Below, one piece after another: positions 9,012 to 46,606 of a stretch of DNA of 64,000 nt. Below the pieces are notes generated by a model. The model did no database searches, was not told the DNA's origin, and worked only from the letters and a program-made list of their open reading frames with translations. Positions within the stretch are counted from its first letter, which is position 1. Every line of letters starts with the position of its first letter. The translations under genes and the position numbers were made by a program. This DNA is from Escherichia phage isim. Location: the sequence record MN850597.1. One strand, given 5' to 3'.

Positions 9012-9039
9012 ATTATACTTATTGAGATTTACTTGTCAA
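9012..9039 (-). promoter_or_regulatory. Near-consensus sigma70 promoter (-35 TTGACA, N16, -10 TATAAT) followed by 5' hairpin GGCGGGAAAACTTCCCGCC
   Basis: Plus 9034-9039 tgtcaa and 9012-9017 attata read TTGACA/TATAAT on minus; hairpin at 8985-9003 lies before the RBS of the 8954 start. Confidence 0.6.
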
Positions 9040-14809: not shown

Positions 14810-14872
14810 AATACATCGCTCTCTGTTAGTTTATGCGTATACTATACACTGCAGTTTTCAGATGTCAACCTC

Positions 14873-15067
14873 TTATAGATTGCTCCAGTACAATCGGCAT
14901 TTACATTTTGGGCAATGAGGTTCTTTTATGTAATAACCGTCAGTCTTTGGAACACTTTTTGGTGCAGTTTTAAGATTGTACCGAGTAAAACACCTGAAGC
15001 AGGTTACCTCTCCGACCTGTTGATCGTTGATCCACTCGCCAGAGTAAAGCTCTTTCTTGTTTCTCAT
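14873..15067 (-). CDS. small zinc-ribbon-like protein (CxxC ... CxxC; start moved to internal ATG)
   Basis: Cys pairs CFRCF and CPKCKC; RBS before the MRNKK start. Confidence 0.4.
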   Translation of the reverse strand: MRNKKELYSGEWINDQQVGEVTCFRCFTRYNLKTAPKSVPKTDGYYIKEPHCPKCKCRLYWSNL

Positions 15068-15264
15068 AATTCTCTCCCCAATCCTCTGCAATCTTCTACC
15101 AGAATCTCCAGCCAGAAAGCACAAGGGAACACTTTAAGGATTGAATCTTTACTCGGTTCGGAAGTTATTTTTCCGTAGGGCAGGTAGAAATACCCTCCTG
15201 CAGATTCGAACACGGCCCCTTCGGTCGTATCTATCACAGCCAGAATTAAGATTTTAGTCTCCAT
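15064..15264 (-). CDS. hypothetical protein (66 aa)
   Basis: ORF in series. Confidence 0.4.
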   Translation of the reverse strand: METKILILAVIDTTEGAVFESAGGYFYLPYGKITSEPSKDSILKVFPCAFWLEILVEDCRGLGREL

Positions 15265-15320
15265 AGTGGTGCTCCCTCTCTCAATCGTTGTGGTGACTAT
15301 ACCATCTCAAAAGTCAGCTG

Positions 15321-15779
15321 TCAACACTCTTTGTACTCCACCACGATAATATCTATATCAAAAGTGGCGAGGTTAATAACGTCCTCTACGTGCTCCCACT
15401 TCAAACCGCCTATGCCGCACCCTATCTTAGGGATGTAGAATGGTAAAGTCGATCCCTCGAATACCTCATTGACTAGCTCAAAGCCTTTCAGGATTGAGAA
15501 ATATTCAGCATTAGGCCCTGGGTAGAACTGAGTATACAGATTGATTCCGTAGACAATACCTCTCGGAGATAAGTGCTCCCATCGGGAGAACGCACCCAGT
15601 TTACTTAGGCAACCGTGTCTGGTCTCTTTGTCGGCTGACAATGCTTGAGGAAACTCACGGGCAATCTGTTTTGCTATGCCCTTACCCATTGTGTGGAAGC
15701 AGTTACAACCGTGGATTAGGTGACCAGCACCGCTCTTAAAAAGGGAGATTAAATCTCCCTTTACAGTATCAATAATCAC
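15321..15779 (-). CDS. macro-domain (ADP-ribose binding/processing) protein (152 aa)
   Basis: N-terminal VKGDLISLF...HLIHGCNCFHTMGKGIAKQI and C-terminal PKIGCGIGGL resemble macro-domain signatures (GDIT...AIVNAAN...GGGV and ISTGIYGYP). Confidence 0.55.
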   Translation of the reverse strand: MIIDTVKGDLISLFKSGAGHLIHGCNCFHTMGKGIAKQIAREFPQALSADKETRHGCLSKLGAFSRWEHLSPRGIVYGINLYTQFYPGPNAEYFSILKGFELVNEVFEGSTLPFYIPKIGCGIGGLKWEHVEDVINLATFDIDIIVVEYKEC

Positions 15780-16194
15780 GGTATGCCAGCTCCTCTTCTA
15801 CGATACTGAAAAATTCTTCCCAGCTTTGAGGCATGTTGGTGTTTCCGAAGTGACTCTCATAGTAAAGGTTCTCACCACTCGGGAGATAGAAATCTGTTAC
15901 CTCATAGAATCCACAATCGTCGCACTCACCTTCTTCAAACTTGGCCTCAACCTTAATACCGAGGAAGGTGAAAAGTTTATGGATATCTTCAGTTTCGAAC
16001 TCCCAGTGAATGTTGTTTTCCGCATCGGTGTAGAACTGGATCAGCAGACCATTGTCCAGTTTACCAAAATATTCTGTGAAGTAACTTCCTCCCCAGAAAT
16101 CTTTATGACAAATAATATCCATGCGTTTGCCCATAATAATGGTGTGAGCGTTTTGGGCATCGTCACGAATCAGTTTTGGCATTTCATAGATCAT
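15769..16194 (-). CDS. hypothetical protein (141 aa)
   Basis: ORF; start overlaps the macro-domain gene. Confidence 0.5.
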   Translation of the reverse strand: MIYEMPKLIRDDAQNAHTIIMGKRMDIICHKDFWGGSYFTEYFGKLDNGLLIQFYTDAENNIHWEFETEDIHKLFTFLGIKVEAKFEEGECDDCGFYEVTDFYLPSGENLYYESHFGNTNMPQSWEEFFSIVEEELAYRDY

Positions 16195-16262: not shown

Positions 16263-16460
16263 TTACACAGGAATTGCTTCAAATAGACCGTTATCTATAC
16301 CGTCCTTCAGATAGAGATTATATTCTATGTCGGTATCTGTATAAAGGGCAGCATCCAGCATTCTATCTGTGAGTCCATCCATCGGGTGGAGAAACCACCA
16401 CCCACGCCAGTCAAAGTAACAGCCTGGTGCATCTTCTCTTACACGGATTCGATAAATCAT
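16263..16460 (-). CDS. hypothetical protein (65 aa)
   Basis: ORF in series. Confidence 0.4.
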   Translation of the reverse strand: MIYRIRVREDAPGCYFDWRGWWFLHPMDGLTDRMLDAALYTDTDIEYNLYLKDGIDNGLFEAIPV

Positions 16461-16555
16461 GGGCAGTGGCCTCCTGTTAGTTATACATCCCAGTTTTCTT
16501 CGTTCATCACGTCCTCCCGTCTATGAAGTTATAATTGCACACCTTTCAACCTGTG

Positions 16556-16972
16556 TCAACAGAAAACTTCAACAAACTCTTCCACAGTTTTAATGTCGTG
16601 GGAAAAAGGTTTACGGCTATAACGGGCAATAGCACTATCAACCACCGCTCGGTACTCAAGATCTTCAGAGTATTTCATGAAGCATTGCAGTGTTTCTGGA
16701 CAGATAGCTAGATAGCTCCACCACCCTTCATCAGATTGATAGTCAAAGCCCATGCTCTCCAACCATGAAGCATATACGCCTGCACCTTCCAGCCAGTGAG
16801 TATTTTCATCCAGAAACTTGTTAACAGACATGTGAGCTTCTAAGCACTTGTCCAGCTCTTTTCCGTTAACCAGCCACGCACTAACTGTGGCGCATCCAAG
16901 GTCTACAGATTGAGTTGACAGGTTGTATTGGTCATAGTTCTCAGGTTTAACAATGATATCTTCTAATGTCAT
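16556..16972 (-). CDS. hypothetical protein (138 aa)
   Basis: ORF; RBS AAGGAGA; preceded by a terminator-like hairpin. Confidence 0.55.
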   Translation of the reverse strand: MTLEDIIVKPENYDQYNLSTQSVDLGCATVSAWLVNGKELDKCLEAHMSVNKFLDENTHWLEGAGVYASWLESMGFDYQSDEGWWSYLAICPETLQCFMKYSEDLEYRAVVDSAIARYSRKPFSHDIKTVEEFVEVFC

Positions 16973-16998
16973 TTTTCAGATCTCCTTATACAAAAATG

Positions 16999-17024
16999 CC
17001 CCACCCTTTCGGGCAGGGCTATGT
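16999..17024 (-). terminator. GAAA-tetraloop hairpin (CCCUGCCC-GAAA-GGGUGGGG) followed by a U-run; identical copy at 27975
   Basis: 20-nt sequence identical at the two sites; on the minus strand a UUUUU tract follows, directly after the 17035 stop. Confidence 0.55.
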
Positions 17025-17034
17025 TAACTAGATG

Positions 17035-18261
17035 TTAGAATGGGATGTCATCATCAAAGGCGTACTGTGCTGGATTCTGATCCATCGGGTCATCTTCCCC
17101 ATCATTTACAGGAGGAGCGTCTACAGTGTTTTGCTGTGGAGCTGCTTCCTGTTTGGCAGCCTGAGGTTCTTGATGGTCAGTTGACCCAGCACCGTTCTTG
17201 ATCCAATCGTACAACGGCTCAGCCAGATTAGTCAAGACATCTTTTGCTTCTGCAGTAATTGCCGCTGCAAAATCATCAACTTTCGTTTTCTTGTCAATAC
17301 GGCGACAAGCGTTCAACACCGCATTACCGACACTGGCACCTACTTCATCTTCAGTTCGGTTGGTGGCTTGAGCATACTCTTTCTTAAGCTCAATAGTGAC
17401 TACGTGTAGTGTTTTAGCCACTCCTAGTGGGTCGTCTACCTTAAACCCGCGATCCAGGATGATTTGCAACGCATTGATGCTATGCCCCGTTTCCACACCG
17501 ATAGGGTCGTAAGAGGATTTACGCTTGCCACCAGAGCCTTGAGTACCGTTCTCTGCCTTAGGAGGATAGGCTTTGAAACCACTGATAATGTTTCCGGTGT
17601 CTTTGTCAACAATGGCTGCAACACGACCACCTACCACCAGGTCTTTAAGCTGCTCATCAGTTACAACCATAGCACCTTCGCCAATCTTGTGGTCATTAAC
17701 AGTAACCACGTTGCCAACAATCTGAGTCACATCACCATAGATGCGTAAAACGTCCTGATTGGCATTCTGCTGAGGTTTCTGCTTCTGGCCTTGTGATTGT
17801 GCACCTTGTTGCTGTTTTTGCTGCTGAGTCGCTGCTGGAGCCTCTCCTGCACCCAGCTTAACCATCTTAGCCAGTGAGCCTTTGTAGTAGGTCTTACCGT
17901 TATGCTCGTTTGCCTTCAAAGGGATATTTACGATCCATCCTGGCGTTACGGTTTCCCACTTGTCATCAATTTTAACAGAGACAGAGTCTTGATGACCCGG
18001 TTTAAGCAGCTTATCGCCCATACTGATCCAAATTTCTTCACCACCTTGAAGTAGGTTATCAGAGGAATCCAGTTCAGAAATCAGTAAAGAGATGGTGTGG
18101 CTGGACTCAATTTTCTTACCTTGCCACACAGTGGTTTTAATACCTGTTGTAGGATCAGCACCTTTGATAGGCTTGATGCTGACGCGTTTAATCATGCCGT
18201 GAGCCAGTAAAACAGTTTCACGCGGATTCATCGGGTTAGCGAATTGTTGAATAACGCTCAT
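17035..18261 (-). CDS. putative ssDNA-binding protein with an E. coli SSB-like C-terminal tip (...AFDDDIPF) and a Gln-rich linker (408 aa)
   Basis: C-terminus DDDIPF is identical to the E. coli SSB tip; sits in the replication module. Confidence 0.5.
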   Translation of the reverse strand: MSVIQQFANPMNPRETVLLAHGMIKRVSIKPIKGADPTTGIKTTVWQGKKIESSHTISLLISELDSSDNLLQGGEEIWISMGDKLLKPGHQDSVSVKIDDKWETVTPGWIVNIPLKANEHNGKTYYKGSLAKMVKLGAGEAPAATQQQKQQQGAQSQGQKQKPQQNANQDVLRIYGDVTQIVGNVVTVNDHKIGEGAMVVTDEQLKDLVVGGRVAAIVDKDTGNIISGFKAYPPKAENGTQGSGGKRKSSYDPIGVETGHSINALQIILDRGFKVDDPLGVAKTLHVVTIELKKEYAQATNRTEDEVGASVGNAVLNACRRIDKKTKVDDFAAAITAEAKDVLTNLAEPLYDWIKNGAGSTDHQEPQAAKQEAAPQQNTVDAPPVNDGEDDPMDQNPAQYAFDDDIPF

Positions 18262-19657: not shown

Positions 19658-19974
19658 GCTTCCTCGTCGTCTAAAGAGTTGAAGATTTCACCGAAGTATT
19701 CTAAGACTTCTAGCTCCCGTGTGGTGCAGAAAACACAGTCACCGTTGTCATCCTCGATAACGGCCTCTTTACCCAGCACATCTACTTCAAGTTTATCGTT
19801 CAACAGGACAGCCCCTGTGTAAACTTTGTCGGCTGTGCAGTCCCGAAAAGCAGAGTCTTTCTCCAGATAGTCTGGCTTAACCTTGGCTTTAATTCGTTGG
19901 TATTGTTTGGTCATTGCTGTGGTCCCCTTTCGTTTTGATAGGGCCATTATATTAGGCCCCATCACTGTTGTCAA
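19654..19974 (-). CDS. hypothetical protein, paralog of 19978..20232 (106 aa)
   Basis: Shared pattern AF(R/K)DCT...Y...DD(N/E)GD(C/S)V(F/W)CT with its neighbour. Confidence 0.5.
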   Translation of the reverse strand: MTTVMGPNIMALSKRKGTTAMTKQYQRIKAKVKPDYLEKDSAFRDCTADKVYTGAVLLNDKLEVDVLGKEAVIEDDNGDCVFCTTRELEVLEYFGEIFNSLDDEEA

Positions 19975-40166: not shown

Positions 40167-40237
40167 ACTATATCGGAGATTTAGAGTAAAGTCAACACGT
40201 TTTTGATGTTGACATCTATTGAAACAATTGATACGAT
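40167..40237. promoter_or_regulatory. Divergent sigma70-like promoter pair at the strand switch (minus: TTGACT-N17-TATAGT at 40167-40195; plus: TTGACA-N17-TACGAT at 40209-40237)
   Basis: Hexamers read directly on both strands between divergently oriented gene blocks. Confidence 0.5.
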
Positions 40238-40268
40238 TTCTTCACTTACAGGGCACGAGAGACAACTC

Positions 40269-41246
40269 ATGAATCTTGAAAAATATTATACACCAGAAGA
40301 GTTAGAGCGCCTGCTCAAAAAATATAGACGCAAACAGAATAATGCACGGAAACGAGATATAGAGTTCAACCTGTCATGGGAAGAATACCTCCTATTTGGT
40401 AAAAAACTTTTAGGAGATGGAGTATGCGACTATACCCTTATACCTTTTGACATGCACACAGATGAAAACGGGCTGGGAAATCCTTTCTACCCATCTTTGG
40501 AGCGTATAGATGATGAAGGTCCTTACGCAATTGACAATTGTTGTGTGGTAGGGTTGAGGTGCAATGCTCTGAAAGACTGTTTGGTAGATAAAAAGACTGC
40601 AATCCTGATTAAAGACAAAACTGATCGAAAAATTGTCCAGCAGATGATGCTCCACCTGAGCGAAGAGCGTATGGAGAAATTGAAAGGTGATTATACTTTT
40701 GAAGATTTCATCTTGCAATACGGGACAGAAGAAGATAAACTAGCACTATTTGACGAAGAGGAAGAAGATATGTCACCAATGCAGGACTTTAAAAATTTCA
40801 TGGCTGATCGTGCAGCCAACAAACACATTTCAGACATCGTGAACGAGACTGTGACAGAAGAAGTTGAAGAACAGAACTCTGAAGAGGAAAAAGAGCCTCA
40901 GGAGGTCGAAGAGGGGATTGCAGAAGAGGTTCCTGCACTGCCTGATGATGTTGAGATTGCTAAGGCTTACACTTTCTATTGTCAAACGTTCTACGATGCA
41001 GGTATGAAAGTTGATCTGTCGTTCAGCCAATTTAAGAGTTCGTATATTCGCAAATGCTGTGCTTTAACTGGTGAACGTCTCGGAGCTGGACTTAAACCAC
41101 TGTTGGTGACCGACTGGAATAAAGGTTTCACTAAAGGAAACTTTATGGTAGTATCTCCAATTATGGAGAAAGCTATGACAGATCTTATGAAGACCACCCG
41201 CATGACAATGACCGAGTTGGCAGGTATTTTCAAACACGTTAAATAA
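40269..41246 (+). CDS. hypothetical protein with acidic central region (about 325 aa; start moved to MNLEKYY because the plus promoter overlaps the ORF-track start at 40203)
   Basis: ORF; predicted promoter lies inside the first 35 nt of the longer ORF. Confidence 0.55.
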   Translation: MNLEKYYTPEELERLLKKYRRKQNNARKRDIEFNLSWEEYLLFGKKLLGDGVCDYTLIPFDMHTDENGLGNPFYPSLERIDDEGPYAIDNCCVVGLRCNALKDCLVDKKTAILIKDKTDRKIVQQMMLHLSEERMEKLKGDYTFEDFILQYGTEEDKLALFDEEEEDMSPMQDFKNFMADRAANKHISDIVNETVTEEVEEQNSEEEKEPQEVEEGIAEEVPALPDDVEIAKAYTFYCQTFYDAGMKVDLSFSQFKSSYIRKCCALTGERLGAGLKPLLVTDWNKGFTKGNFMVVSPIMEKAMTDLMKTTRMTMTELAGIFKHVK

Positions 41247-41258
41247 TGACAGGGGCCA

Positions 41259-42740
41259 ATGGCCCCTTCTGGAGTTTTAATGGATAGCAGAAGTTCAGAA
41301 ATCATTACCTCACAGAAAGATGATGCCCTGAGAATGTTGCAGGCTGCACGTATGTATCTCCTTGAAAAGCTGCCGTTTTATGGCACACTACTGTCAGGGT
41401 TGCAGTTCGTAGAAAACCACACATGGTGCTCCACCATGGCAACCGACCATAAACGCATCTATTACAGTCCTGAGTTCATTATGGGATTGGCTGATGAACG
41501 CAAGGCTATTCTTAAGGCTTCTCTAACTGACGAGCAGTTTGAGATGGCTGAAGTTTTCTATTCCCCAAAATCTGTGAAAGAGGTGGCCTTCCTTCTGTCA
41601 CATGAGGTGGGGCATATTATCTGTGATCACCTGGTCCGTGGTAAAAGCTTTGAGCCGGAACTGTTCAATATTGCTTGTGATCACGTTATCAACACAGGCC
41701 TTGTGGTTGACTTTAGCAAACCTCCTTGTGTTTTCTTCCCGAAGGGGAAAAGCACTACGTTCGTGAAAGGTAAGCCTTTTGGCTTCTTAGCCAGCTGCTA
41801 CTGCGACATGAAGTTTCATGGATGGATTGCTGAGAACGTTTATGCAGTTCTTGATAAGCAAAGAGATCAGAATAACGGTAAAAGTAAGAGCGGTAAAGGT
41901 GAGAACTCTCAAGGTGATAAGCGACAAACCGATGATCACATGAGTGGGAATGGTGGCACCAGTGATAATCTTGGAAAGGCTATGGGGTATGATCAGCCAC
42001 AACCTGTAATCAGCCAATCTGATAAAGATCAGGCCATGCAGGACTCTGGCGATATGCTGGAGGCAGCAATGCAAGCGTCCGGAGGCCGTTGCCCTGAGGC
42101 GGTGCGTGAGTTTGTCAAGAACAGAGGTAAGCCTGTAATCAACTATATAGACATCATTAAGCAACGCATGTTGTCTAAAAGAAAGGCCGAACTGACCTAC
42201 AGAAAACCTGGTCGCCGATCTGGGTCTTTGACCAGCACAATGCGAAAAGTTGGGGCTATAAACAAGAACCAGCACGTTATTGTTCCTGGTCGTAATCCGG
42301 AAAACACTATAGATATTGTGGTGGCTTTAGACGTTTCTGGCTCGATCTCTCAGAGAACTTTAAAGAAAATGTTCAATGAAATCACCGGATTGTGCAATCT
42401 GTATAAAGAGTTTAAGGTTACAATGTTCTGTTGGTCAACTGAGGTTGGAGAGGTTAAAGTATACACTCGCGGCAACATAGACGAGATGATCAACTATGAG
42501 GTCCACTCAACATGGGGCACAACAGCTGCTTGCGTGTTCGAGTATCTGGATGCCAACATACCGAATGCAAAAGATGTCATCGTCCTGACCGACCTATACT
42601 TTGAGCATAACTTTGAACAAAAGGCTGTTGACAACAAGTGGAAAAAGTACGATACTCTATGGGTCCTCACTGAAGGGTATAATAAAAATTATATCCCGAG
42701 CTTTGGGAAAACTGTGGAATTAATCGAGTACGCTAAGTAA
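41259..42740 (+). CDS. HExxH plus VWA-domain protein (CobT/DUF2201-like; usual partner of MoxR-type ATPases) (493 aa)
   Basis: HEVGHIICDH zinc-binding-like motif; VWA MIDAS-like VVALDVSGSIS. Confidence 0.7.
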   Translation: MAPSGVLMDSRSSEIITSQKDDALRMLQAARMYLLEKLPFYGTLLSGLQFVENHTWCSTMATDHKRIYYSPEFIMGLADERKAILKASLTDEQFEMAEVFYSPKSVKEVAFLLSHEVGHIICDHLVRGKSFEPELFNIACDHVINTGLVVDFSKPPCVFFPKGKSTTFVKGKPFGFLASCYCDMKFHGWIAENVYAVLDKQRDQNNGKSKSGKGENSQGDKRQTDDHMSGNGGTSDNLGKAMGYDQPQPVISQSDKDQAMQDSGDMLEAAMQASGGRCPEAVREFVKNRGKPVINYIDIIKQRMLSKRKAELTYRKPGRRSGSLTSTMRKVGAINKNQHVIVPGRNPENTIDIVVALDVSGSISQRTLKKMFNEITGLCNLYKEFKVTMFCWSTEVGEVKVYTRGNIDEMINYEVHSTWGTTAACVFEYLDANIPNAKDVIVLTDLYFEHNFEQKAVDNKWKKYDTLWVLTEGYNKNYIPSFGKTVELIEYAK

Positions 42741-46445: not shown

Positions 46446-46606
46446 TAGAATTTAAGGCCTCAAACGAGGCCTGTGCCTTCATAAATTTCTCCACCCTGTG
46501 CGATTGCCTTCCTGAATAAAATACCCTCTCAGATCTCTTAAAATTAAGCTTGACACCACCACCAGATCTATATATAATTCTCACCAACCAAACAGAGGAG
46601 ATCGTC

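What the first reader, a model, noticed from the sequence alone, without database searches (positions are those of the whole stretch)
15321..15779. Macro-domain protein inside a cluster of small middle-region genes
The 152-aa ORF shows macro-domain signatures at both ends (GDL...HGCNCF...MGKGIAKQI and PKIGCGIGGL). Macro domains bind or hydrolyse ADP-ribose adducts. In a lytic phage the plausible roles are reversing host ADP-ribosylation of phage DNA or proteins (for example DarT-type toxins) or processing NAD-derived defence signals. Its small neighbours (15769..16194, 14873..15067, 16263..16460) are candidates for the same function.
Basis: partly seen in the sequence, partly recalled or inferred. 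Interest (0 to 1): 0.6.

Follow-up and report, generated by a model that had tools for sequence, protein, structure and literature searches.

The report
Phage anti-DarT macrodomain (AdfM-type)
This gene of an rV5-like E. coli phage encodes a genuine macrodomain enzyme of the same family as phage T4's Tk.4/AdfM, which protects T4 from the DarTG2 defence system, so it is a real but already understood kind of counter-defence gene.

Summary
The ORF is real: 15321..15779 on the minus strand, 152 aa, with a GTG start overlapping the stop of the upstream ORF. It is a macrodomain. Pfam Macro scores above its gathering cut-off, and the AlphaFold2 model (pLDDT 96.4) matches TARG1, DarG, Poa1p, BT1257 and SCO6735.

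The window is a Vequintavirus, 98% identical to BASEL phage Bas56. The protein is 40% identical over its full length to T4 Tk.4. It is 69.5% identical to the protein in the tk.4 slot of Krischvirus phages. A 2025 preprint named Tk.4 AdfM because deleting it makes T4 sensitive to DarTG2.

Where DarG and TARG1 have their catalytic lysine, this family has a near-invariant glutamine (Q84) together with N26. That is the configuration of Streptomyces SCO6735, a stand-alone macrodomain shown to remove ADP-ribose from thymidine in DNA.

The "neighbours share the function" idea is mostly unsupported. The 141-aa and 65-aa ORFs are lineage-specific and change position relative to the macro gene. Only the 64-aa zinc-ribbon gene (14873..15067) is shared together with the macro gene in another phage lineage.

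Verdict: a new member of a known kind, of low to moderate interest.

The parts
15321..15779 (-). Macrodomain gene, 152 aa. It is a homologue of T4 Tk.4/AdfM and has a Gln-type (SCO6735-like) active site: N26, Q84 and the G120-x-G122 loop.
15769..16194 (-). Upstream 141-aa acidic ORF (pI 4.3) whose stop overlaps the macro start, so translational coupling is possible. It is restricted to Vequintavirinae and its function is unknown. No link to the macro function was shown.
16263..16460 (-). 65-aa ORF, the first gene of the putative three-gene unit. It is restricted to Vequintavirinae and its function is unknown.
16531..16559 (-). Sigma-70 promoter-like site (TTGACA-17-AATTAT with a TG extension) upstream of the 65-aa, 141-aa and macro genes.
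15296..15324 (-). Near-consensus sigma-70 promoter-like site (TTGACA-17-TATAGT, 11 of 12 matches). Its -35 box overlaps the macro stop codon. It would start a separate unit made of the 66-aa ORF and the zinc ribbon.
15064..15264 (-). 66-aa ORF between the macro and zinc-ribbon genes. It was found only in close Vequintavirus relatives and is absent from the Krischvirus cassette.
14873..15067 (-). 64-aa basic zinc-ribbon protein (PF23903 Phage_zn_bind_2). It is co-inherited with the macro gene in Krischvirus, where its 78%-identical homologue directly follows and overlaps the gene. A possible partner; unproven.
16998..17019 (-). Intrinsic-terminator-like hairpin after the 408-aa gene. It would close the preceding transcription unit, upstream of the ORF 16556..16972 and of the 16559..16531 promoter-like site.

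Best explanation
The gene encodes a stand-alone ADP-ribosyl glycohydrolase macrodomain of the T4 Tk.4/AdfM family. Proposed mechanism, with each step marked as inferred. It is made early from host-RNAP promoters (inferred from promoter-like sites). It binds ADP-ribose adducts that a host DarT2 toxin places on thymidines of single-stranded phage DNA. It hydrolyses the ribose-base bond, releasing ADP-ribose and restoring replicable DNA, so the phage escapes DarTG2-type abortive defence (inferred from the homologue's genetics). The chemistry is predicted to be of the SCO6735 type rather than the DarG type. Q84, held in place by N26, would position the distal ribose for a water-mediated attack. 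There is no catalytic lysine (inferred from alignment). The protein has no DarT-binding C-terminal domain, so it is an orphan antitoxin-like enzyme rather than a DarG.
For: Fold and family. Pfam Macro scores above its cut-off. The AF2 model has pLDDT 96.4. Foldseek gives TM 0.72-0.78 to TARG1, Taq and Mtb DarG, SCO6735, BT1257 and Poa1p. The NCBIfam and PADLOC DarG models match only their macro part, positions 2-143 of 338.

Homology to a tested protein. Identity to T4 Tk.4 is 40% over 153 residues, E=8e-42. Identity to the gene between vs and tk in Krischvirus W115 is 69.5%, and that gene is annotated tk.4 in Krischvirus Phi1. Occupants of the tk.4 slot in Straboviridae differ from each other by as much: T4 to W115 is 45% and T4 to Slopekvirus is 33%. 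A tk.4 knock-out sensitises T4 to DarTG2 (preprint).

Active site. Q84 is present in 201 of 206 family members, N26 in 204 of 206 and G120 in 201 of 206. Profile alignment places NlYtQ on NMIGQ of SCO6735 and BT1257, and on FPTK of DarG and LITK of TARG1. In SCO6735, Q85 and N27 are needed for activity: Q85A abolishes removal of thymidine-linked ADP-ribose from DNA, N27S almost abolishes it, and SCO6735 rescues E. coli from DarT (PMC9411070).

Selection and dispensability. dN/dS is 0.11-0.19. Occasional truncated or fused copies occur, as expected for a conditionally useful gene.

A macrodomain Adf has been shown biochemically in another phage group, PhiKZ gp104 (PMC13309987).
Against: No Vequintavirus has been tested against DarTG2, and the literature search found none. 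The T4 result is genetic and comes from a preprint; de-ADP-ribosylation by Tk.4 itself was not shown there. Identity to T4 Tk.4 is only 40%. The DarG/TARG1 catalytic lysine is absent. Macrodomains are promiscuous: SCO6735 also acts on proteins, and Poa1p, a phosphatase for a small ADP-ribose derivative, is an equally good structural match. A comparative survey argued that most phage macrodomains target soluble ADP-ribose derivatives (PMC9503650).
Confidence: 0.7

Rival explanations
1. The enzyme acts on soluble ADP-ribose derivatives rather than on DNA. Candidate activities are O-acetyl-ADP-ribose deacetylase, ADP-ribose-1''-phosphate phosphatase (Poa1p-like), or hydrolase for ADP-ribose-derived immune signals or toxins. 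It would then blunt NAD-based signalling defences or clear metabolic by-products.
For: Poa1p is among the best sequence and structure matches, and the H-x-C-N-C motif is shared with it. GenBank annotators label homologues 'phosphatase' or 'O-acetyl-ADP-ribose deacetylase'. A comparative survey proposed soluble substrates for most phage macrodomains (PMC9503650).
Against: The only experimental phenotype for a member of this family is loss of DarTG2 resistance, and tk.4 was the single significant hit in that screen. The closest characterised Gln-type enzyme, SCO6735, works on DNA. No NAD-salvage or signal-related gene was seen among the ORFs of at least 180 aa that were scanned against Pfam (20 of 27) or among the 8 small ORFs next to the macro gene.
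Confidence: 0.12
2. The enzyme removes ADP-ribose from proteins or RNA. Targets could be adducts made by other ART-type defence toxins or by phage-borne ARTs, in the manner of TARG1.
For: TARG1 is the top Foldseek hit. SCO6735 also de-modifies auto-ADP-ribosylated PARP1. Reversing enzymes for RNA ADP-ribosylation include macrodomains (PMC11833690; title and abstract only).
Against: The TARG1 Lys/Asp dyad is absent. No ART domain was found among the 20 of the 27 ORFs of at least 180 aa in the window that were scanned against Pfam, though only 64 kb of about 136 kb was examined. There is no genetic evidence for such a role in T4.
Confidence: 0.1
3. The protein protects mainly without catalysis, by binding and inhibiting DarT (antitoxin mimicry) or by sequestering ADP-ribose ligands.
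For: Catalytically dead SCO6735 Q85A still inhibits DarT in vitro. ICP1 AdfB appears to neutralise DarT by direct interaction (PMC11481870).
Against: Residues needed for catalysis in SCO6735 (N26, Q84 and the glycine loops) are almost invariant across more than 200 homologues, which points to selection for catalysis. The DarT-binding C-terminal domain of DarG is missing.
Confidence: 0.05

Closest known systems
Phage T4 Tk.4 = AdfM (anti-DarT factor macrodomain; HIDEN-SEQ preprint, bioRxiv 10.1101/2025.11.20.689424)
   Same: Full-length homologue: 40% identity, E=8e-42. Same size (152 vs 155 aa) and same motifs (HGCNCFHTMG, NLYTQF, P-x-IG-x-GIG). Both are stand-alone proteins in a virulent E. 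coli myovirus. A 69.5%-identical copy occupies the tk.4 slot in Krischvirus.
   Different: It lies in a different phage subfamily and genomic context: downstream of the replication module, not between vs and tk. It has not been tested experimentally.
Streptomyces coelicolor SCO6735 (PDB 5E3B) and Bacteroides BT1257 (2FG1): stand-alone Gln-type macrodomains of the ALC1-like class
   Same: These are the best profile matches in the PDB (8.9e-19 and 4e-17). Gln replaces the catalytic Lys, and the Asn, His and glycine loop are conserved. SCO6735 removes thymidine-linked ADP-ribose and rescues cells from DarT.
   Different: These are bacterial proteins with only about 23% identity in the structural alignment. 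The residue equivalent to SCO6735 Val25 is an invariant Gly24 here. SCO6735 has a longer 'mobile loop'.
DarG (DarG2) antitoxin macrodomain (PDB 5M3I, 5M31/5M3E; NCBIfam NF048014)
   Same: Same fold (TM 0.75-0.76). It is the best single-sequence PDB hit (8e-8). The expected substrate, ADPr-thymidine in ssDNA, is the same.
   Different: There is no C-terminal DarT-binding domain and no Pfam-detectable DarT-type protein among the eight ORFs next to the gene. The catalytic Lys80 is replaced by Gln. The score of 48.5 bits is far below the equivalog cut-off of 250.
PhiKZ gp104 'AdfM' of chimalliviruses (Cell Rep 2026, PMC13309987)
   Same: A phage-encoded stand-alone macrodomain that counters DarTG2. 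Removal of T-ADPr from DNA was shown in vitro.
   Different: Identity is only 20% in the BLASTP local alignment (E=7e-5) and 28% in the global pairwise alignment. PhiKZ gp104 is Lys-type (N23/K78) and is imported into the phage nucleus. It appears to be a separate lineage that was given the same name.
Human TARG1/OARD1 (PDB 4J5R/4J5S) and yeast Poa1p (6LFQ-6LFU)
   Same: These are the top Foldseek matches (TM 0.78 and 0.72). They belong to the same ALC1-like/Poa1p-like macrodomain class.
   Different: TARG1 uses a Lys84/Asp125 dyad that is absent here. Poa1p is an ADP-ribose-1''-phosphate phosphatase, and no such pathway context is seen in the phage.

Membership tests
Macrodomain superfamily (Pfam PF01661) | Sequence score above Pfam's gathering cut-off | tested here: met
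   28.5 bits against a cut-off of 22, E=1.6e-6
Macrodomain superfamily (Pfam PF01661) | Three-layer alpha/beta macro fold | tested here: met
   AF2 pLDDT 96.4. Foldseek finds 160 PDB chains at E<=1e-3, and the top 50 are macrodomains or engineered proteins (designed serine hydrolases).
Macrodomain superfamily (Pfam PF01661) | ADP-ribose-binding loops: N-x(4)-M-G-x-G after strand 2, and the P-x-I-G-x-G-x-x-G-G diphosphate loop | tested here: met
   N26, M31, G32, G34 and P117, G120, G122, G125 are present in 189-205 of 206 homologues
Macrodomain superfamily (Pfam PF01661) | Actual binding or hydrolysis of ADP-ribose | not testable with these tools
   Needs biochemistry
T4 Tk.4/AdfM family (anti-DarTG2 macrodomain) | Full-length homology to T4 Tk.4 | tested here: met
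   40% identity over 153 residues, E=8e-42
T4 Tk.4/AdfM family (anti-DarTG2 macrodomain) | Falls within the diversity of tk.4-slot genes of Straboviridae (an orthology-level relationship) | tested here: met
   69% identity to the Krischvirus tk.4-slot protein, whereas T4 to Krischvirus is 45% and T4 to Slopekvirus is 33%. No formal phylogeny was made.
T4 Tk.4/AdfM family (anti-DarTG2 macrodomain) | Required for growth on DarTG2-expressing hosts | not testable with these tools
   Shown for T4 only. No Vequintavirus data were found.
SCO6735-type (Gln-type) ALC1-like macrodomain hydrolases | Gln at the position of the DarG/TARG1 catalytic Lys, together with the stabilising Asn | tested here: met
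   Q84 and N26. The profile alignment places NlYtQ on NMIGQ of SCO6735 and BT1257 with high posterior probability. Q is found in 201 of 206 homologues. This rests on sequence and profile alignment; no 3D superposition of side chains was done.
SCO6735-type (Gln-type) ALC1-like macrodomain hydrolases | Val/Ile at the residue whose backbone positions the catalytic water (SCO6735 Val25) | tested here: not met
   The equivalent residue is Gly24, present in 204 of 206 homologues. The proposed role is through the backbone, so this may not matter.
DarG antitoxin (type II TA, NF048014) | Score above the equivalog cut-off | tested here: not met
   48.5 bits against a cut-off of 250
DarG antitoxin (type II TA, NF048014) | C-terminal DarT-binding domain | tested here: not met
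   The protein is 152 aa and matches only model positions 2-143 of 338
DarG antitoxin (type II TA, NF048014) | Adjacent darT toxin gene | tested here: not met
   The neighbouring ORFs have no DarT or ART match in Pfam
DarG antitoxin (type II TA, NF048014) | Catalytic lysine (Taq DarG K80) | tested here: not met
   Replaced by Q84
TARG1/OARD1 | Lys84/Asp125 catalytic dyad | tested here: not met
   LITK aligns with LYTQ, so the lysine is replaced by Gln. The Asp125 position was not examined separately.

The most novel reading that the evidence does not exclude
The Tk.4/AdfM-type phage macrodomains, including this one, may form a very large lysine-free (Gln-type) clade. Its chemistry, and perhaps its substrate range, would then differ from DarG. 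It might be a broad-spectrum eraser acting on several ADP-ribosylated nucleic-acid or protein targets. The small PF23903 zinc-ribbon protein travels with this macrodomain in Krischvirus and Vequintavirus. It also sits directly after an Acb1-like enzyme in a jumbo phage and after an HD hydrolase in a Mydovirus. It could be a generic accessory or targeting partner of counter-defence hydrolases.
Probability: 0.12. Interest if true: 0.5.

Novelty: new member of a known kind. Interest (0 to 1): 0.25.

Why it matters
It assigns a probable function, anti-DarTG2 counter-defence, to a gene that most of the roughly 115 rV5-like phage genomes carrying it list as 'hypothetical protein'. These phages are being considered for therapy and biocontrol, so their counter-defence repertoire helps predict host range. 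The analysis also shows that the T4-type AdfM family is lysine-free and SCO6735-like. That gives concrete mutants (N26A, Q84A, Q84K) for mechanistic tests. It separates this family from the unrelated Lys-type PhiKZ protein that received the same name.

Tried and rejected
1. The neighbours as functional partners. A jackhmmer search with all 10 flanking ORFs against 85 fetched loci plus the window region showed that the 141-aa, 65-aa, 138-aa and 66-aa ORFs occur only in Vequintavirinae loci. In L007 the 141-aa and 65-aa genes lie downstream rather than upstream of the macro gene. The idea that they are conserved partners was rejected.

2. The 141-aa ORF. Only 4 homologue clusters were found in 5.8 billion proteins. 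Only one of the five AF2 models was moderately confident (pLDDT 76; the others about 40). Foldseek against the PDB gave nothing at E<=1e-3. No assignment was possible.

3. Whether the gene upstream of the zinc-ribbon homologue in Yersinia phage fHe-Yen9-04 (g102, 148 aa) is a macrodomain. It is not (BLASTP E=0.33). It is Acb1-like.

4. Whether T4 tk.1-tk.3 belong to the same zinc-ribbon family. They do not (DUF7202 and DUF7438).

5. Membership in DarG proper was rejected: no C-terminal domain, no darT, no catalytic Lys, and a sub-threshold score.

6. Identity with PhiKZ 'AdfM' was rejected: 20% identity in the BLASTP local alignment.

7. A crude regex check of the Gln motif in the top 142 representatives gave 113 with Q. 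It is too rough to cite as a frequency; the MAFFT-based count is the one used.

8. A literature search for DarTG2 tests on Vequintavirinae found none.

Full report
**Observation.** The minus strand carries a 152-aa ORF at 15321..15779 that starts with GTG. The start codon overlaps the stop of the upstream 141-aa ORF (GTGATTATTGA). The deduced N-terminus aligns residue for residue with T4 Tk.4. The same CDS is annotated in the closest relative (bas56_0089). The gene is under purifying selection, with dN/dS of 0.11 and 0.19 against two other Vequintavirinae copies.

**What the window is.** The 3-kb region is 98% identical to BASEL phage Bas56 (AlexBoehm) and 94-97% identical to more than 100 rV5-like phages of the genus Vequintavirus. 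The gene lies in a long minus-strand arm, downstream of a family-A DNA polymerase, a DnaB-like helicase, a DNA methylase and a PIF1-like helicase. It sits within a run of small ORFs. Near-consensus sigma-70 promoter-like sites punctuate this run: TTGACA-N16-18-TAKART occurs 5 times in the window against 0.16 expected, and 4 of the 5 are on the minus strand between 9 and 20 kb. One such site, 16559..16531, precedes the 65-aa, 141-aa and macro genes. Another, 15324..15296, has its -35 box overlapping the macro stop codon and precedes the 66-aa ORF and the 64-aa zinc ribbon. This pattern suggests early transcription by host RNA polymerase. That is an inference only.

**It is a macrodomain.**
- Pfam Macro scores above its gathering cut-off (28.5 vs 22 bits).
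- PHROG 335 gives E=2.9e-60.
- PADLOC and NCBIfam DarG models match, but only over their macro part.
- An AlphaFold2 model built on 74 homologues has pLDDT 96.4 and pTM 0.91.
- Foldseek against the PDB returns TARG1 (TM 0.78), Mtb and Taq DarG macrodomains (0.75-0.76), SCO6735 (0.75), and BT1257 and Poa1p (0.72), all with probability 1.00. These all belong to the ALC1-like/Poa1p-like class.

**Relation to a tested protein.** tblastn finds homologues in 2,726 of 50,697 phage records. In T-even phages the homologue lies next to vs, which is gene tk.4. T4 Tk.4 is 40% identical over the full length, E=8e-42. In the T4-like genus Krischvirus (W115; annotated tk.4 in Phi1), the gene between vs and tk is 69.5% identical to the window protein. 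Occupants of the tk.4 slot differ among themselves by as much: T4 to W115 is 45% and T4 to Slopekvirus is 33%. The Vequintavirus protein therefore lies within that family's diversity.

A 2025 preprint reported that tk.4 was the single significant hit when a T4 transposon library was grown on DarTG2. A clean knock-out became DarTG2-sensitive, and the authors named the gene adfM (10.1101/2025.11.20.689424). Enzymatic removal of ADP-ribose by Tk.4 was proposed there but not shown. The same study made a library in the Vequintavirus Bas54 but did not challenge it with DarTG2. I found no other such test.

**Active site.**

| Window residue | Present in (of 206 aligned family members) |
|---|---|
| N26 | 204 |
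| Q84 | 201 |
| H23 | 199 |
| G24 | 204 |
| G120 | 201 |
| G122 | 199 |

A profile of the family against PDB sequences ranks BT1257 (8.9e-19) and SCO6735 (4e-17) just above Mtb DarG and TARG1 (about 7e-17). It aligns the family's N-l-Y-t-Q with NMIGQ of SCO6735 and BT1257. It aligns the same motif with FPTK of DarG and LITK of TARG1. So Q84 occupies the place of the DarG K80 / TARG1 K84 catalytic lysine. T4 Tk.4 has the same NLYTQ.

SCO6735 is the characterised precedent. It lacks the lysine. Q85A abolishes its activity and N27S almost abolishes it. It removes thymidine-linked ADP-ribose from DNA efficiently, rescues E. coli from DarT, also acts on a protein substrate, and even when inactive inhibits DarT in vitro (PMC9411070). 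This fits the DarT2-reversal reading and predicts a lysine-independent mechanism.

One SCO6735-specific feature is not shared: Val25 corresponds to the invariant Gly24 here. The PhiKZ protein also named AdfM is a different, Lys-type lineage (N23/K78). It is 20% identical to the window protein in the BLASTP local alignment and 28% in the global alignment.

**Not a DarG.** The protein has no C-terminal DarT-binding domain, no Pfam-detectable DarT-type neighbour and no catalytic lysine, and it scores far below the equivalog cut-off.

**Neighbours.** The 141-aa, 65-aa, 138-aa and 66-aa ORFs were found only in Vequintavirinae loci. In the more distant L007 the 141-aa and 65-aa genes lie downstream rather than upstream of the macro gene. 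The 141-aa protein has only four homologue clusters. Its model is marginal and it has no structural match.

The exception is the 64-aa basic zinc ribbon (PF23903). In Krischvirus a 78%-identical copy directly follows and overlaps the macro gene. DNA similarity between the window and W115 is confined to exactly these two genes. The two were therefore exchanged together. In the window, a 66-aa ORF and a promoter-like site have come between them, and L007 lacks the zinc ribbon. This is a weak lead, not evidence of shared function.

**Dispensability.** A few contigs carry decayed copies. One is an in-frame fusion of the upstream ORF to macro residues from about 86 onward. Another has an internal deletion, and two have frameshifts. 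This is what one expects of a conditionally useful counter-defence gene.

**Family size.** A profile search of 1.84 billion cluster representatives gives 1,511 proteins at E<=1e-30 and 11,373 at E<=1e-10. Most of the best 150 listed are stand-alone proteins of about 150-160 aa.

**Rivals.**
- Soluble ADP-ribose derivatives as substrates. This is supported by the resemblance to Poa1p and by the general argument of PMC9503650.
- Protein or RNA adducts as substrates, suggested by the resemblance to TARG1.
- Non-catalytic DarT inhibition.

None is excluded. The only phenotype known for the family is DarTG2 sensitivity, and the residues needed for catalysis in SCO6735 are almost invariant.

**Verdict.** The gene is a new, untested member of the recently defined Tk.4/AdfM family. 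The only modestly new points are the Gln-type active site of that family and the co-inherited zinc ribbon.

Noticed in passing
window 14873..15067 (-); L003 3446..3640; L087 3971..4189; L088 3938..4123: Homologues of the 64-aa PF23903 zinc ribbon sit directly 3' of different hydrolase genes in separate phage lineages. In Krischvirus the partner is the tk.4 macrodomain. In Yersinia jumbo phage fHe-Yen9-04 it is an Acb1-like protein, within an island that also has Nampt, SIR2 and NUDIX-cREC genes. In Mydovirus KpS8 it is an HD-domain phosphohydrolase. Only a few cases were seen and no statistics were done.
   Followed up: partly
proteins P0017, P0020, P0038, P0062 (Vequintavirus-type contigs of about 135 kb): Natural decay of the macro gene. 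P0017 is an in-frame fusion of residues 1-55 of the upstream 141-aa ORF to macro residues from about 86, with the junction at a shared QFY. P0020 has an internal deletion. P0038 and P0062 are frameshifted.
   Followed up: partly
window 9012..9039, 14841..14868, 15296..15324, 19946..19974 (-) and 46550..46578 (+): Near-consensus sigma-70 promoter-like sites (TTGACA-N16-18-TAKART): 5 found against 0.16 expected. Four are on the minus strand within the small-gene cluster, which suggests short early transcription units.
   Followed up: partly
window 40203..41246 (+) and 41259..42740 (+): A 347-aa ORF is followed by a DUF2201 metallopeptidase/VWA-like protein. This may be the MoxR-VWA pair whose ATPase (bas54_0063) the HIDEN-SEQ preprint reports as needed to overcome the predicted defence system DS-28. 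Pfam gave no hit for the 347-aa ORF, and orthology was not checked.
   Followed up: no
one search hits H6, H7 (MG065644, MG065690 and 14 more): Sixteen records named 'Campylobacter phage' with host Campylobacter jejuni include at least two (H6, H7) that are 96% identical to this E. coli rV5-like region. They are probably mislabelled or contaminant genomes.
   Followed up: no
BFVD hit A0A481YV05 (Marseillevirus LCMAC103, 302 aa); L005 2995..3780: The best viral structural match (TM 0.93, 39% identity) is a Marseillevirus protein annotated as SNF2 subfamily, which recalls the ALC1 SNF2-plus-macro arrangement. Felixounaviruses carry the macrodomain as the N-terminal half of a 261-aa protein with an unassigned C-terminal extension.
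   Followed up: no
window 17035..18261 (-): A 408-aa protein with a Gln/Pro-rich low-complexity centre and an acidic C-terminal tail (…DDDIPF) lies just upstream of the cluster. It has no Pfam match. The tail resembles those of single-stranded-DNA-binding proteins; this was not tested.
   Followed up: no
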